From an uncultured Bacilli bacterium (GTDB lineage: Bacteria > Bacillota_I > Bacilli_A > RF39 > UBA660): a DNA stretch of 64,000 nt. How positions within the stretch are numbered: position 1 is the stretch's first letter; each line of letters opens with the position of its first letter. The DNA lies in assembly GCA_910584305.1 (NCBI GenBank), contig CAJTZW010000001.1, forward strand, positions 78,836 to 142,835, given 5' to 3'. Shown here piece after piece: positions 40,611 to 44,926 of the stretch. The notes beneath the pieces are model-generated. The model did no database searches. It was not told where the DNA came from and saw nothing but the letters and a program-made list of their open reading frames with translations. A program made the translations under genes and the position numbers.

Positions 40611-40898
40611 ATGAATAACTATAAAATTGTTATAGATGCTGGTCATGGAGGAAGTGACCCAGGTGCAAGTGGTAATGGAATTGTTGAGAAGGACTTAACC
40701 TTGAAAATTTCTCAGTATATGTATGATCGTTTTAAAGAATTGGGTATTCCAGTTACAATGACTAGAACAACAGATGAAACTGTAGACCCTACTGAACGTG
40801 TGAATCGTATTTTAAATGCTTATGGAAATCGTAGTGATGTGATTGTTATAAGTAATCACATAAATGCAGGAGGTCGTGGGTTTAGTTACCATTGTTAG
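40611..40898 (+). pseudogene. N-terminal fragment of an Amidase_3-LysM N-acetylmuramoyl-L-alanine amidase gene, interrupted by an integrated element (the last ~8 codons derive from the element)
   Basis: It reads MNNYKIVIDAGHGGSDPGA...ISNHINAGG, then runs into element sequence and stops. The C-terminal half resumes at 56075. Confidence 0.7.
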
Positions 40899-41027
40899 AT
40901 TTAATTGGGTATTTAGACGACTGTATTTAAACGAAATAGTTGATAGATAATTTATTGAAGTGGTTAGAGTAGTGTTTATTTAGAAAATAAATGCTATTTT
41001 TTTAGAGTTGAAATTAAACTAATTAAA

Positions 41028-41171
41028 ATTTACAAAACACCAATCAAAAGTCAAAAATAACATAGGTGTTTTATAAAAAAAGTGTTTACTTTATATTTGA
41101 TTAATGATATACTAAAATTGATTTACAAAACGCCTAACAAAAATTAAAAATAATATAGGTATTTTGTAAAA
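41028..41171 (+). promoter_or_regulatory. two ~51-bp imperfect direct repeats, each holding an inverted repeat, bracketing a TTTACT-17-TATACT promoter (41085-41113). This is a candidate AbiEi autoregulatory operator
   Basis: Repeat 1 is ATTTACAAAACACC...GGTGTTTTATAAAA (41028-41078). Repeat 2 is ATTTACAAAACGCC...AGGTATTTTGTAAAA (41121-41171). Confidence 0.45.
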
Positions 41172-41182
41172 GGAGGTAAAAT

Positions 41183-41725
41183 ATGATTTATTCAGGAAAG
41201 GAAGCATTAGAAAAATATGGAACAAGATATAATTTATCTAAAGCATTAAAGAATAAAGAAATATTTAAATTAGAACATGGTATATATTCTGACAAAGATT
41301 TAGTAAATCCAATGATTATAGCTTCTAAAAAATATTCAAGTGCTATTATTACTATGGACTCTGCATTTTATTATTACGACTTAACTGATGTAATTCCTAA
41401 AAAAACTTATGTAGCAACAAATAGAAATTCAAATACTATAAATGATGAAAAAATTATTCAAATTAAAGTTCCAAAAGATATTTTAAATTATGGAAAAGAG
41501 GAAGTTATAGTAGATGGTGAAAAAGTTAAAATGTATAATAGGGAGAGACTGTTAGTTGAGTTAGTCAGAAAAAGAAATCAAATTCCTTTTGATTATTATA
41601 AAGAAATAATATCTAATTATAGAAAAATTGCAGATGATTTAGATATGTATAAAATTGAAGAATATTTAGCTTTATATAAAAATGAGGTTAATCTTGCAGA
41701 TGCATTGTTAAGGGAGGTTTTTTAG
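41183..41725 (+). CDS. AbiEi-like antitoxin/transcriptional regulator (type IV TA system, abortive infection)
   Basis: It is about 180 aa, it is immediately upstream of and overlaps an AbiEii-like nucleotidyltransferase gene, and the promoter has repeats. Confidence 0.5.
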   Translation: MIYSGKEALEKYGTRYNLSKALKNKEIFKLEHGIYSDKDLVNPMIIASKKYSSAIITMDSAFYYYDLTDVIPKKTYVATNRNSNTINDEKIIQIKVPKDILNYGKEEVIVDGEKVKMYNRERLLVELVRKRNQIPFDYYKEIISNYRKIADDLDMYKIEEYLALYKNEVNLADALLREVF

Positions 41726-42552
41726 TGAATTTAGAGGATATTGTAAGACATAATATAGAAAATGGTTATGATTTAATTGATGCCAGATCTAAGGTAGCAC
41801 AAGATGTTATTTTGAACAAAATTTCTAAAAGCAAATTTAAAAATAATATTACCATTAAGGGTGGTGTAGTAATGCATAGTATATCAAATTCTGTTCGTCG
41901 TGCTACGCGTGATTTAGATTTAGATTTTATTAAATATTCATTGGAGGATAAATCTATAATAGGTTTTATAGACAGACTTAATTCAGTTGGTGATAATATT
42001 ACAGTTGAAATAATAGGAAAAATAGAAGAACTACATCATCAGGATTATCATGGTAAAAGAGTTTATATTAGGTTAATTGATATTAATAATTATAAAATTG
42101 ATACAAAACTAGATATAGGTGTTCATAAATTATTTGAACTAGAGCAAGATGATTATTATTTTAATTTAAATGCAATGGAAGATGGAGTTAGTTTATTTAT
42201 TAATTCTCCAGAACAGATTTTTACAGAAAAATTAAAATCATTACTTAAATTAGGATTTATATCAACTAGATATAAAGACCTGTTTGATTTCTATTATTTG
42301 ATTAATTATGATAAATTAGATAGAAAAAAATTATTAAAAGCATTTCAAGTAATAATACTTGATGATAACAATATGCTTGAGGAAACAATAAGGAATATAT
42401 ATTCTAGACTTGCAAGTATTTTTAATTCAAATATTTATAAAAGAAATTTGAGTGATCCAAAAAATAACTGGATAGATATACCTATAAATACTGCTATAGA
42501 AAGTGTTTTAAAATATATAGAAGAGTTATCTAGCGAAGTTGTTGGAGTTTAG
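41725..42552 (+). CDS. AbiEii/AbiGii-family nucleotidyltransferase toxin (DUF1814)
   Basis: It has the motif IKGGVVMH...RATRDLDLDF, which corresponds to the KGGTAL...R.S.DLDF signature of this family. Confidence 0.6.
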   Translation: MNLEDIVRHNIENGYDLIDARSKVAQDVILNKISKSKFKNNITIKGGVVMHSISNSVRRATRDLDLDFIKYSLEDKSIIGFIDRLNSVGDNITVEIIGKIEELHHQDYHGKRVYIRLIDINNYKIDTKLDIGVHKLFELEQDDYYFNLNAMEDGVSLFINSPEQIFTEKLKSLLKLGFISTRYKDLFDFYYLINYDKLDRKKLLKAFQVIILDDNNMLEETIRNIYSRLASIFNSNIYKRNLSDPKNNWIDIPINTAIESVLKYIEELSSEVVGV

Positions 42553-42563
42553 GAGGTTTATAG

Positions 42564-42824: not shown

Positions 42825-42827
42825 TAT

Positions 42828-43264
42828 ATGGATAATTATAATATTTGGGAGAAAAAAGTTGAAGAAAATCATAAACGGAACGAAAATTTTATTAAAGAAT
42901 TTGAGAGCTGGTTAATTCAAAAAACCTCACAAAGAAAACTATTAGAAAACATTTAAATAATGCAAGTCTATATATTAATGATTATTTAAATTATTATGAT
43001 GCAAGTACAATGGAAGATGGAGTACATTATGTGTATGGATTTTTGGATGGTTGGTTTATAGAAAAATGTCTATGGTCATCAAGAAATTCATTAAAAGAAA
43101 CTGTAGTAAGTATTAAAAAATTCTATCAGTGTATGAGCGAAAAAGAGTATGTTAGTAAAGATGATTATAATGAATTATGTAGTTTTATAAAAGAAAATAT
43201 GGATGAGTTTTTAGAACAAATGGATGCATTTGAGAATGGAACATATTATGATATGTTTGATTAA
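42828..43264 (+). pseudogene. hypothetical gene apparently split by a -1 frameshift at an A6 tract (42919-42924); fused product ~145 aa
   Basis: The 41-aa ORF MDNYNIWEKK...QKTSQRKLLENI (stop TAA 42951-42953) runs in a different frame into the 84-aa ORF at 43010. The second ORF's frame is open back to 42905, spanning the junction. Confidence 0.35.
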
Positions 43265-43291
43265 ATAAATTTGAAGTTAGTGAGGTAGTAT

Positions 43292-44851
43292 ATGCAAACA
43301 AGAAAAATGTATGAAAGAATAAGCTGGTATAAAAAGGAATATGTACATGAACAGTATTCTAGAATAGTTGAACATTTTAAAGATTATGATAAAATCACAA
43401 AAAAGAAAATGTTAGAAAATATATATAAAGTCTATAATGATTTTAATAATATTATAGATATTTGTACTACTAGAGAATTAAAGTATTTAAAAATGTTACT
43501 TGATAAAAGGAACAATCTGAAAGATTTATTAGATGATAAATATGAATGGGAAAGAAAGTTACTTAGAAATAAATTTTTAGTTCAAGATGATTATGATCAG
43601 GTGTTTATACCAGATGAGATAATTGATAAGGTAGAAATTGCGATAAAAAATGTTAATTGGAATATAACGAAAAAATTAGATGATTTAAATGAAATATTAG
43701 TAAGTTATTGTAAAATACAGGCATCAGCACTGCTTAATAGTGTTTGTTCTTTTGCATCAGGTATAACAGGCATAAATGAAAATTTAATTTGGAATCATAT
43801 GTTAAACAATAAATTATTTAATTATTATGTGTTAGTCTATACTAAAGATTTTGGAACGATTGGAAATGACATACCTGTTGCCTTATATCAAGATTATTAC
43901 TATATTGAAGAAGCGCTAGAAGAAGAAAGAAAAAAACAAGGTCTAGCAGGATCTCTACCAATAGATTTAAGAATTTATAAGACACTATTTTATAATGATT
44001 TTGATATTAATAATAAAAAAATAAAAAAGTTTTTGGATGAAATAAAAAAGCTACCATTTTTCTGGTTTTCGGCACTTGATGGTATTAGAGAATTTGCAGT
44101 ATTAAATATAGATAGGGCTCCTTTAAAGAAATCAATTGAAAGTGTTCCGGCTTTAAAAGATTATGATTTAACAGAGTTTTTTAAGATATTAGATGAAGCT
44201 ATGGATGAGATGCCTTCTGGGGCATTAAATGGATTTACTCCAAATCAGGCAAAACAATTAAAGATAGAAACAGAAAGACTTAAATATGAAAAGGGAAAAA
44301 AGTATACTGAACAACAAAACGCTTGTTTATCTAGAACGGATGCAAAACTCTTTTATAAAATCTATTTTGGGTTATTAGAATTTACTAACAACAAATATAA
44401 AATTAATACAAAATTAAAGGTATATAATAAATTAGGTATTAATCCTTATGAACTAAAAGATATAGTAGAAAAGTTTTGGGAAAATAAAGATGCTATTGTA
44501 CTAGAATTTTGCATGGGTAATCCATATAAATTTAATAAAGAAGAATTAAGTATTACTAGTGAATTTAAAAAAGGATTTAGAGATTTAGTAATAATTGCTA
44601 AATATGAAAAAGAATATACTGCCGTTATGAATAAAGATAAGACATATATGATTAAGGGATTAAATGATAATATAGATAATATTATTTCTTATCAAAAATT
44701 ACCTCAACCTGTAATGACATCTATTATTCCATTTAAAAATGTTTTAATTTATGATGGATTATTAATGGAATTAGGTATAAAGATGGGAAATGGTTTTGAG
44801 AAAGTGGTTTTAGAAGAATATTCTAAATCAATGAAATATTATCACTTATAA
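43292..44851 (+). CDS. hypothetical protein, 519 aa, no recognisable family
   Basis: A long ORF with an RBS (GTGAGG). It lies inside the defense-cargo region of the element. Confidence 0.5.
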   Translation: MQTRKMYERISWYKKEYVHEQYSRIVEHFKDYDKITKKKMLENIYKVYNDFNNIIDICTTRELKYLKMLLDKRNNLKDLLDDKYEWERKLLRNKFLVQDDYDQVFIPDEIIDKVEIAIKNVNWNITKKLDDLNEILVSYCKIQASALLNSVCSFASGITGINENLIWNHMLNNKLFNYYVLVYTKDFGTIGNDIPVALYQDYYYIEEALEEERKKQGLAGSLPIDLRIYKTLFYNDFDINNKKIKKFLDEIKKLPFFWFSALDGIREFAVLNIDRAPLKKSIESVPALKDYDLTEFFKILDEAMDEMPSGALNGFTPNQAKQLKIETERLKYEKGKKYTEQQNACLSRTDAKLFYKIYFGLLEFTNNKYKINTKLKVYNKLGINPYELKDIVEKFWENKDAIVLEFCMGNPYKFNKEELSITSEFKKGFRDLVIIAKYEKEYTAVMNKDKTYMIKGLNDNIDNIISYQKLPQPVMTSIIPFKNVLIYDGLLMELGIKMGNGFEKVVLEEYSKSMKYYHL

Positions 44852-44888
44852 TTCCATATGGAATATGTGATTCTAAAAGGCGGAAGGT

Positions 44889-44926
44889 TTCGTTACCATT
44901 GTTAGATTTAATTGGGTATTTAGGCA
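44889..44926 (+). repeat. 38-bp near-perfect direct copy (37/38) of the element's left-end sequence at 40887-40924
   Basis: GGTTTCGTTACCATTGTTAGATTTAATTGGGTATTTAG here against GGTTTAGTTACCATTGTTAGATTTAATTGGGTATTTAG there. The upstream bases even re-encode a GGRFRYHC* tail like the GGRGFSYHC* at the first junction. Confidence 0.8.

What the first reader, a model, noticed from the sequence alone, without database searches (positions are those of the whole stretch)
40887..44926. The element's left end is duplicated 4 kb inside the element (38 bp, 37/38 identical), which suggests two tandem or composite elements
GGTTTAGTTACCATTGTTAGATTTAATTGGGTATTTAG at the left junction (40887-40924) recurs as GGTTTCGTTACCATTGTTAGATTTAATTGGGTATTTAG at 44889-44926. 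The bases upstream of the second copy, GGC GGA AGG TTT CGT TAC CAT TGT TAG, again encode a GGRFRYHC* tail like the GGRGFSYHC* at the first junction. This looks like a second left-junction (attL-like) site. It splits the island into a module of about 4 kb without a recombinase (AbiE, small ORFs, the 519-aa gene) and a module of about 11 kb (Fic, type I RM, recombinase). One possibility is a satellite element mobilised in trans by the neighbour's recombinase. Another is sequential integrations into the same hotspot.
Basis: seen in the sequence. Interest (0 to 1): 0.6.

Follow-up and report, generated by a model that had tools for sequence, protein, structure and literature searches.

The report
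Second attachment junction inside a defence island
The 38-base repeat is the element-side half of a serine-recombinase attachment site present twice, which shows that this 15-kb anti-phage island splitting a cell-wall amidase gene is two mobile modules joined in tandem, a known kind of build-up seen here in a new family.

Summary
No such match is expected by chance.

It is the P' (element-side) arm of the attachment site of a family of large serine recombinase (LSR) islands. These islands insert at the GG core of codons NAGG|GDGAE in an Amidase_3-LysM gene of uncultured gut Bacilli.

- **Copy 1** is the true attL.
- **Copy 2** is a second attL-type junction. It consists of a short degenerate amidase-like half-site ("b"), the GG core and a P' arm, and it sits 27 nt after the 519-aa gene.

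Related contigs show that the two modules assort independently:
- Module-2-type elements sit directly in the amidase (L018, L034, L081, L083).
- Module-1 genes occur with their own LSR (L066).
- The same b arm is joined, exactly at the core, to P' arms of two different classes with different cargo (L027 against L088; window against L084).

It works like SCC composite islands or CIME accretion.

In this window the composite looks mosaic and partly decayed:
- Both P' arms are class II, but the LSR and the right-end P arm are class I.
- A conserved 0.9-kb segment upstream of the LSR is deleted.
- b is degenerate.
- One gene is frameshifted.

The parts
40611..40873 (+). 5' part of the interrupted Amidase_3-LysM gene. 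The ORF runs on into the element and stops at 40898.
   Evidence: Pfam Amidase_3, E=8e-21. Translation ends ...SNHINAGGRGFSYHC*. Intact homologues read NH[IL]NAGGGDGAE.
40854..40916 (+). attL (copy 1): B arm 40854-40871, GG core 40872-40873, element spacer TCGTGG 40874-40879, class II P' arm 40880-40916. The 38-bp repeat is 40879-40916.
   Evidence: The same B.GG.TCGTGG.P' junction is found in L081, L083 and L084.
40874..44878 (+). Module 1 (4.0 kb, no recombinase): AbiEi 41183-41725, AbiEii 41725-42552, DUF6429 42564-42824, frameshifted 145-aa gene 42828-43264, 519-aa gene 43292-44851.
   Evidence: Pfam and PADLOC. Frameshift seen against L107. The same block, 98.9% identical and bounded by the same repeat, occurs in Logan contig L107.
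44861..44923 (+). Internal attL-type junction (copy 2): degenerate B-like arm 'b' 44861-44878, GG core 44879-44880, spacer CGGAAG 44881-44886, class II P' arm 44887-44923. The 38-bp repeat is 44886-44923.
   Evidence: The homologous b arm in L027/L088 matches the amidase B arm at 12/18 plus GG (P=0.0015). Homology between contigs that share b breaks at the core.
44881..56080 (+). Module 2 (11.2 kb): about 170 nt of leader, Fic 45082-45930, HsdM 46128-47624, HsdS 47608-48777, 280-aa unknown 48808-49650, HsdR 49655-52693, LSR 53098-54759, 406-aa unknown 54829-56049.
   Evidence: Pfam and PADLOC. Fic plus the R-M genes are 86-92% identical in nucleotides to L018. The LSR is 98% identical to L001.
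53098..54759 (+). Large serine recombinase (553 aa), class I lineage.
   Evidence: Resolvase, Recombinase and Zn_ribbon_recom domains. 96-98% identical to L001, L002 and L077, whose P arms are class I.
56052..56100 (+). attR: class I P arm 56052-56080 (GCAGTAATCAATGGGAGGGCTAATCTTGT), GG core 56081-56082, B' arm 56083-56100.
56081..57184 (+). 3' part of the amidase gene: the rest of the catalytic domain and five LysM repeats.
   Evidence: Joining 40873 to 56081 restores NAGGGDGAE.
53030..53082 (+). Promoter-like TTGCAA-17-TATCAT, then GTCTTAATACCCGATTAA upstream of the LSR. The latter is an inverted, diverged copy of the distal P' motif ATTTAATTGGGTATTTAGAC.
   Evidence: The motif is conserved at this position in most of the 80 related loci.

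Best explanation
The island (about 40874-56080, 15.2 kb) is a tandem composite of two modules from a family of LSR-borne defence islands. These islands integrate at a GG core inside codons NAGG|GDGAE of an Amidase_3-LysM gene.

**What the repeat is.** The 38-bp repeat is the P' half-site of attP plus a distal conserved motif.
- Copy 1 is the outer attL (amidase B arm, GG, P').
- Copy 2 is an inner attL-type junction. An 18-nt B-like half-site ('b') forms the right end of module 1. It is joined at GG to the P' arm of the right-hand element.

**Shown:**
- the anatomy of both junctions;
- that the P' arm is the conserved, palindrome-partnered half-site of the family;
- that modules 1 and 2 occur separately elsewhere;
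- that the same b arm is joined, exactly at the core, to P' arms of two different classes carrying different cargo.

**Inferred:**
- Module 1 is a recombinase-less passenger, like a CIME or pseudo-SCC element.
- When its right-hand partner excises, b.GG.B' is left as a usable landing site, and another LSR element can then integrate there.
- The composite can travel as a unit by outer attL x attR recombination.

**State in this window.** The composite is a further mosaic. Both P' arms are class II, but the LSR and P arm are class I. Decay is visible: b is degenerate, the conserved RHH and HTH_36 genes upstream of the LSR are deleted, and one gene is frameshifted. Present-day excision of either module is therefore uncertain.
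For: - **Repeat:** real and non-random.
- **Recombinase:** an LSR with all three domains.
- **Shared target:** most of the 80 related loci carry this LSR family next to the same amidase B' arm.
- **Core:** intact amidases read NAGGGDGAE, which fixes the core as GG with a GGT overlap.
- **attP symmetry:** P and P' are inverted repeats placed 6 nt either side of GG in both classes.
- **P' conservation:** the P' arm is conserved across the class II lineage.
- **b arm:** it resembles the amidase B arm at 12/18 plus GG. Only 2 sites that good exist in the whole window, and one is B itself.
- **Junction recurrence:** the b.GG.P' junction follows the 519-aa gene in the window, L027, L084-L096, L103, L107 and L109/L110. 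It carries class II P' in the window, L027 and L093-96 and class I P' in L084-92.
- **Break at the core:** identity drops from 98% to 74% at the core (L027 against L088) and from 87% to 63% (window against L084).
- **Module 2 alone:** L018, L034, L081, L083.
- **Module-1 genes with their own LSR and no b:** L066 and L111-113.
- **Transfer as a unit:** a near-identical composite (98.5%) sits behind two different amidase alleles, L088 and L089.
Against: - The predicted empty landing site (b.GG.B' followed by the amidase 3' part) was not found in any fetched locus or in a viral-contig scan.
- The window's own b arm matches the amidase B arm at only 7/18, which is not significant on its own.
- In simple accretion models the inner junction should be P.P'. 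How a B-like arm came to lie at the right end of module 1 is not explained.
- The LSR and P arm class do not match the P' class (5/1/1/27 table, Fisher p=1.3e-4). No class I P' arm exists in the window.
- No excision products were observed. L107 is a repeat-bounded unitig, not a circle.
Confidence: 0.7

Rival explanations
1. One-off secondary-site integration. A class II element once integrated into a chance pseudo-attB just after the 519-aa gene of a resident L066-like element. The right part of the resident element, with its recombinase, was later deleted. On this view b was never a reusable site, and later diversity of right-hand partners arose by homologous recombination in conserved backbone sequence (leader, Fic).
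For: - L066 and L111-113 show that the gene cluster continues past the 519/527-aa gene in elements without b.
- All b arms are homologous, so a single origin is possible.
- Leader and Fic are conserved across the family and could anchor homologous exchange.
- The empty site was not found.
Against: - The same b arm is joined to class I and to class II P' arms, with the break exactly at GG, in both b sub-lineages.
- Homologous exchange would need homology left of the core between b and a true B arm. That homology is only 12/18.
- 12/18 plus GG is rare by chance.
Confidence: 0.2
2. The repeat is a regulatory sequence (an operator or promoter element) present twice to control module-1 and module-2 genes. 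It is not a recombination site.
For: The distal 18 nt of the repeat recurs, inverted, between the promoter-like hexamers and the ribosome-binding site of the LSR gene in most family members. This explains why conservation extends beyond a normal LSR half-site.
Against: - The proximal part is the palindromic partner of the family's class II P arm.
- Both copies start at the same distance from a GG core.
- Copy 1 abuts the broken amidase codon.
- Copy 2 is preceded by a B-like arm.
Confidence: 0.05
3. An internal duplication of the element's left end by slippage or unequal crossing-over within a single element, with no module boundary.
For: The two copies are 37/38 identical within this window.
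Against: - Similarity starts at the crossover position and ends after about 60 nt.
- The 6-nt spacers differ (TCGTGG against CGGAAG).
- The modules occur apart in other genomes.
- In L093 the two P' copies differ at several positions.
Confidence: 0.03

Closest known systems
Staphylococcal cassette chromosome composite islands (SCCmec / pseudo-SCC / ACME, CcrAB/CcrC large serine recombinases)
   Same: - Integration is driven by a serine recombinase.
- Modules lie in tandem and are separated by repeated att-derived sequences.
- Some modules lack a recombinase.
- The internal repeats resemble the chromosomal target arm, so the site can be reused.
- Neighbouring cassettes are mosaics (PMC3900703; bioRxiv 10.1101/336396).
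   Different: - SCC inserts at the 3' end of rlmH without destroying it. Here the target is inside a cell-wall amidase gene, which is split.
- A single LSR acts here, rather than a CcrA/CcrB pair.
- The prominent repeat here is the element-side P' arm. The target-like arm is only about 18 nt and degenerate.
- The cargo is anti-phage defence, not resistance.
CIME-ICE site-specific accretion (ICESt1/ICESt3 of Streptococcus thermophilus and tandem IMEs)
   Same: A decayed element without integration genes keeps att sites. A second element integrates beside it, and the tandem can move as one, as reviewed in PMC5704250.
   Different: - Those systems use tyrosine recombinases and tRNA or gene-end targets with long identical cores.
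- A CIME is flanked by attL and attR. Module 1 is flanked by two attL-type junctions.
- No conjugation or mobilisation genes were seen here.
Dehalococcoides ssrA genomic islands
   Same: Several tandem islands lie at one target. They are bounded by direct repeats of the target and mobilised by a CcrB-like serine recombinase, and some islands lack the integration module (PMC3146451).
   Different: - The target there is the 3' end of the tmRNA gene, which is regenerated.
- That integration module has six genes, including a second small serine recombinase.
Gene-splitting LSR elements of spore formers (skin/SpoIVCA, SPbeta/SprA)
   Same: An LSR element interrupts a host gene at a 2-bp core, and precise excision would rebuild the ORF (here NAGGGDGAE).
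   Different: There is no evidence here of developmentally timed excision. The family is defence-cargo islands in uncultured gut Bacilli, and the composite architecture is not a feature of skin or SPbeta. This comparison rests on general knowledge and was not tested.

Membership tests
Large serine recombinase (integrase) element | Recombinase with an N-terminal resolvase catalytic domain, a Recombinase domain and a zinc-ribbon domain | tested here: met
   Pfam Resolvase 2.8e-22, Recombinase 1.3e-23, Zn_ribbon_recom 7.3e-10.
Large serine recombinase (integrase) element | Short (2-bp) crossover core shared by attL, attR and attB, and an attP built as an imperfect inverted repeat around it | tested here: met
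   attL and attR share GG(T). Intact homologues give attB ...GCAGGA GG TGGCGAT.... P and P' motifs mirror each other 6 nt either side of GG in both classes.
Large serine recombinase (integrase) element | Cognate attL and attR: both element arms derive from one attP recognised by the resident recombinase | tested here: not met
   The window has class II P' arms but a class I P arm and LSR. In 32 of 34 loci the classes agree, and the window and L018 are the exceptions. The DNA-binding domains differ most between classes (RD 72%, ZD 69%, CC about 50%, against 90% for the catalytic domain).
Large serine recombinase (integrase) element | Demonstrated excision and integration, and a recombination directionality factor | not testable with these tools
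   No reads or experiments were available. The conserved RHH and HTH_36 genes upstream of the LSR in relatives are deleted here. Their role is unknown.
Tandem accretion / composite island (CIME-like, SCC-CI-like) | A module without recombination genes, bounded by att-derived sites | tested here: met
   Module 1 has no recombinase and is bounded by two attL-type junctions.
Tandem accretion / composite island (CIME-like, SCC-CI-like) | Modules occur separately, and with other partners, at the same target in other genomes | tested here: met
   L018, L034, L081 and L083 (module-2 type alone). L066 (module-1 genes with their own LSR). L084-L092 (module 1 with other partners).
Tandem accretion / composite island (CIME-like, SCC-CI-like) | Separate and joint excision products of the modules | not testable with these tools
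   This needs PCR or long reads. L107 is a repeat-bounded unitig and says nothing about circles.
Tandem accretion / composite island (CIME-like, SCC-CI-like) | Empty secondary site left after the partner excises (here b.GG.B') | tested here: not met
   Not found in about 110 fetched loci or in the viral-contig scan. The search was limited.
Defence island | Cargo made up of recognised anti-phage systems | tested here: met
   AbiEi 4e-64, AbiEii 7e-101, Fic/PDC-S72 1e-80. Complete type I R-M HsdM/S/R. Relatives carry Shedu, a Gabija-like pair, GmrSD and a NACHT-like protein.

The most novel reading that the evidence does not exclude
Module 1 is a recombinase-less 'docking' passenger. It carries its own target-like half-site at its right end, so it regenerates a landing pad (b.GG.B') next to itself. 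LSR defence islands of two different att classes have docked there in turn. Module 1 then rides with whichever partner can pair with its outer arm. More broadly, this amidase gene is a multi-site hotspot: at least three LSR lineages use three positions in it, and defence modules accumulate there in gut Bacilli.
Probability: 0.3. Interest if true: 0.65.

Novelty: new variant of a known kind. Interest (0 to 1): 0.5.

Why it matters
**For annotation.** Boundaries of LSR islands cannot be read from the outermost repeats alone. An internal P' arm marks a cassette boundary.

**For biology.** The locus gives a sequence-level example of how anti-phage systems (AbiE, type I R-M, Fic, Shedu, Gabija-like and others) are shuffled between strains of uncultured gut Bacilli. 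The shuffling is by site-specific cassette exchange at one gene. The example includes a passenger module that keeps a reusable half-site.

**For engineering.** Two LSR lineages share one attB but use different attP arms, and natural hybrid att combinations exist (this window and L018). That makes a ready-made test set for what determines half-site specificity and directionality in large serine integrases.

Tried and rejected
1. **First placement of the crossover.** I first put it in GTGG (40876-79) and read the following hexamer as host codons. From that I inferred a 'GGE allele' origin for copy 2. Intact amidase homologues showed this was wrong: the core is GG at 40872-73 and the hexamer belongs to the element.
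2. **A 5-bp outward shift of an AATG motif.** I took this shift between the B and P arms for the classic LSR zinc-ribbon-motif offset. With the corrected core the distances do not fit, so the claim is dropped.
3. **Exact-sequence look-ups.** Look-ups of the window's LSR and of its 406-aa protein found nothing.
4. **Fic breakpoint test.** Fic is 82-91% identical to both classes, so it could not locate the mosaic breakpoint.
5. **BLASTP comparisons.** The 519-aa protein compared with the L002 467-aa and L082 383-aa proteins showed no homology.
7. **Promoter and terminator scans.** Scans of both P' leaders found nothing above shuffled expectation.
8. **Viral-contig scans.** Scans for the empty dock and for the P' arm gave one chance hit in a giant-virus bin and nothing else.
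9. **A circular module 1.** I considered reading L107 this way. Its ends are exactly the first and last unique 31-mers around the repeat, so it is a repeat-bounded unitig.

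
Full report
**1. Observation**

The 38-mer is present twice, at 40879-40916 and 44886-44923. The copies match at 37/38 and lie 4007 nt apart. The shared 32-mer has two matches in the window and none in 100 dinucleotide-preserving shuffles. Weaker similarity runs on to about 60 nt (D7).

**2. The surroundings**

An Amidase_3 gene with five LysM repeats is split into two parts: 40611-40873 and 56081-57184. 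Between them lie about 15.2 kb of lower G+C, carrying these genes:
- AbiEi and AbiEii
- a DUF6429 protein
- a frameshifted 145-aa gene
- a 519-aa gene of unknown function
- then, after copy 2, Fic (PADLOC PDC-S72)
- HsdM, HsdS, a 280-aa unknown and HsdR
- a 553-aa large serine recombinase (Resolvase, Recombinase and Zn_ribbon_recom domains)
- a 406-aa unknown

No conjugation, relaxase or phage structural genes were recognised.

**3. The family and its attachment sites**

A scan of one genome per species with the LSR returned 80 loci. Nearly all come from uncultured gut Bacilli or 'Tenericutes' bins, and LSR identity ranges from 65% to 98%. In most of them the amidase 3' part follows the recombinase within 0.1-3.5 kb. 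So this is a widespread family with one conserved target.

One hundred and twenty intact amidase homologues read NH[IL]NAGGGDGAE at the site. This gives attB as ...AATGCAGGA GG TGGCGATGG.... attL and attR share GG(T), so the core is GG, at 40872-73 and 56081-82. The six bases after the core in attL (TCGTGG) belong to the element.

The junction table shows two attP classes. In each, the P and P' motifs are mirror images placed 6 nt either side of GG:
- **Class I:** ...GAGRGCTAA YCTTGT GG ACATAC TTAGCTCTTAC...
- **Class II:** ...AATGGTAACTAAAC TCACCA GG TSNNGR GTTTAGTTACCATT...

It is conserved across the lineage.

Its distal 18 nt (ATTTAATTGGGTATTTAG) also occur, inverted, upstream of the LSR gene. 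There they lie between a promoter-like TTGCAA-17-TATCAT and the ribosome-binding site, in most loci of both classes. That explains why conservation reaches 38 nt and beyond, longer than a half-site needs.

**4. What copy 2 is**

Copy 2 keeps the GG core (44879-80) and a different 6-nt spacer (CGGAAG). The 18 nt to its left ('b') begin 10 nt after the stop codon of the 519-aa gene.

In the window, b is too degenerate to recognise: it matches the amidase B arm at 7/18. Its homologue in L027 and L088-L092 (GAACACCTAATTCTAGGA) matches at 12/18 plus GG (P=0.0015). Only two sites that good exist in the whole window on both strands, and one of them is B itself.

Copy 2 therefore has the anatomy of an attL: a target-type half-site, the core, and an element P' arm. 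The similarity to the amidase stops after about 18 nt. That is the size of a half-site, not of a decaying gene fragment.

**5. Do the modules assort?**

They do.

Module-2-type left ends sit directly behind the amidase B arm in:
- L034 (P' identical at 38/38);
- L081 and L083 (the same TCGTGG spacer);
- L018, which carries Fic plus the same type I R-M at 86-92% nucleotide identity and no module 1.

Module-1 genes occur in other settings:
- L066 carries AbiE and a 527-aa homologue in an element with its own LSR. The next gene follows directly and there is no b. L111-L113 are similar.
- Homologues of the 519-aa protein also occur in plain chromosomal settings (L097-L102, L104), so the gene is cargo.

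Wherever the cluster ends at the 519-aa gene, the stop codon is followed by b.GG.P':

| b sub-lineage | Joined to class II P' | Joined to class I P' |
|---|---|---|
| b1 | window, L093-96, L107 | L084-87 |
| b2 | L027 | L088-92 |

L103 (b1-type, diverged class II-like P', no LSR) and L109/110 carry decayed relics of this junction.

The right-hand cargo differs between these loci:
- Fic plus type I R-M in the window;
- an AAA_15/21 ATPase plus Shedu in L084;
- a 1620-aa NACHT-like protein, Fic, an EcoRI methylase and GmrSD in L088;
- a 1055-aa ORF in L027.

Identity between loci that share b falls at the core: from 98% to 74% (L027 against L088) and from 87% to 63% (window against L084).

L082 shows a further class II P' arm behind an unrelated 383-aa gene and in front of a Gabija-like pair.

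L088 and L089 carry the same composite (98.5% identical) behind two different amidase alleles. Composites therefore move between hosts.

L107, from an independent run, is a 4036-nt unitig 98.9% identical to module 1. It is bounded exactly by the repeat.

**6. Mechanism**

Shown: copy 2 is a site-specific junction, and it is a boundary between independently assorting modules.

Inferred: module 1 is a passenger without a recombinase. Excision of its right-hand partner (inner attL x attR) would leave b.GG.B' fused to the amidase 3' part, which is a hybrid attB. Another LSR element could integrate there. Outer attL x attR recombination would move the pair as one.

This best explains why one b arm is joined at the core to two P' classes. 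Homologous exchange cannot give a break at the core, because b and a true B arm share too little sequence.

Two points remain open. The empty dock was not found. The origin of b is unknown. One lead is L089/L091, where a 1-kb mini-element with a third kind of P' arm is followed by a 408-nt, 98% identical second copy of the amidase promoter plus 5' part. Target fragments can therefore end up between tandem elements, and b may be a trimmed version of such a fragment.

**7. The state of this particular island**

- The LSR is 96-98% identical to L001, L002 and L077. The right-end P arm is class I, but both P' arms are class II, and no class I P' arm exists in the window.
- Across loci where both can be read, recombinase lineage and P' class agree in 32 of 34 (Fisher p=1.3e-4). 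The exceptions are this window and L018, which is the reciprocal hybrid and shares the Fic and R-M block.
- Between classes the catalytic domain is about 90% identical. The Recombinase domain is 72% identical, the zinc-ribbon domain 69% and the coiled-coil about 50%. This fits diverged attP recognition.
- The window also lacks about 0.9 kb that L001, L002, L027 and L034 have just upstream of the LSR. That segment encodes a 52-aa RHH-like protein and a 99-aa HTH_36 protein.
- The 145-aa gene is frameshifted.

I read the island as a mosaic made by homologous exchange between family members at the shared locus. It is now of doubtful mobility, although the LSR ORF is intact.

**8. Comparison with what is known**

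It works like:
- SCC composite islands (PMC3900703; bioRxiv 10.1101/336396);
- CIME-ICE accretion (PMC5704250);
- Dehalococcoides ssrA islands (PMC3146451).

It differs in four respects:
- the target is intragenic and is destroyed;
- a single LSR acts;
- the conspicuous repeat is the element arm, while the target-like arm is a short relic;
- two att classes share one attB.

I rate it a new variant of a known kind, of moderate interest.

**9. Limits**

- All comparative material comes from metagenome assemblies.
- Right ends of the L084, L088 and L093 composites were out of reach.
- No reads or experiments were available.
- Assigning function to b, and cross-reactivity of the LSR classes, are both inferences.

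Noticed in passing
window 53030-53082; window 40899-40918 and 44906-44925; most of L001-L076 about 20-55 nt upstream of the LSR start: The distal part of the P' arm (ATTTAATTGGGTATTTAGAC) recurs, inverted, as GTCTWAATACCCRATTAAGTAAG. This copy lies between a promoter-like TTGCAA-17-TATCAT and the ribosome-binding site of the LSR gene, in both att classes. It may be a shared operator that links the element end to recombinase expression.
   Followed up: partly
window 52857-52859 (against L001 8861-9760): About 0.9 kb present in L001, L002, L027 and L034 is missing here. It encodes a 52-aa RHH-like protein and a 99-aa HTH_36 protein, which are conserved backbone genes just upstream of the LSR. 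They might be regulators or a directionality factor.
   Followed up: partly
window 42828-43264: The 145-aa gene between DUF6429 and the 519-aa gene is frameshifted after about 33 codons, compared with the 98.9% identical contig L107. The 84-aa ORF at 43010-43264 is its remnant.
   Followed up: yes
L018 539-610 and 13050-13110: L018 is the reciprocal att hybrid of the window: a class I P' arm with a class II P arm and LSR. It shares Fic and HsdM/S/R with the window at 86-92% nucleotide identity. The two look like products of exchange between a class I and a class II element.
   Followed up: partly
L088 7440-7710; L034 12659-19832: The same amidase gene is hit at other positions by other LSRs. 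A 535-aa LSR element ends at the GHGG motif near codon 10, and that site (..ATGCAGGACATGGTGG..) resembles the main one. In L034 a 521-aa LSR lies between the catalytic domain and the LysM repeats. The gene is a multi-site hotspot.
   Followed up: partly
L089 5849-7704 (also L091): A 1-kb mini-element (a 222-aa gene and a third kind of P' arm, TGCGCAAGCAGATTTTG) is followed by a 408-nt, 98.3% identical second copy of the amidase promoter and 5' part. A class II junction comes after that. How the target fragment was duplicated is unexplained.
   Followed up: partly
window 50362-50384: A 21/23 match to the middle of the repeat (ATTGTTAGATTTAATTGGTAATT) lies inside hsdR, where it encodes RLLDLIGNY. 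An 18-mer match this good is expected about 0.05 times per window, so it is probably coincidence.
   Followed up: partly
window 41015-41171: Two 64-nt direct repeats (78% identical) lie upstream of abiEi. Each contains an inverted repeat (AAAACACC...GGTGTTTT). From general knowledge of AbiE systems these would fit AbiEi autoregulatory operators. L088 has a comparable pair upstream of its AAA_14 gene.
   Followed up: no
window 43292-44851: The 519-aa protein has more than 300 homologues. Its AlphaFold model is very confident (pLDDT 94, pTM 0.84), but it has no Pfam or PADLOC hit, and no PDB fold match reached E<0.001. It usually sits with DUF6429 and a 141-145-aa protein, next to AbiE or an AAA_14/DUF4143 ATPase. 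It may be an uncharacterised defence gene set.
   Followed up: partly
window 45082-45930 and many loci: Fic (PDC-S72-like) is present at 82-91% nucleotide identity in elements of both att classes, always downstream of a variable cargo slot. It behaves as a backbone gene of the family rather than as cargo.
   Followed up: partly
L082 3778-3843 (minus strand): A class II P' arm lies 22 nt after an unrelated 383-aa gene. It is preceded by CAGGAGG and followed by a Gabija-like OLD/AAA plus UvrD-like pair. This is another non-amidase left flank, and its nature (secondary site or relic) is unresolved.
   Followed up: partly
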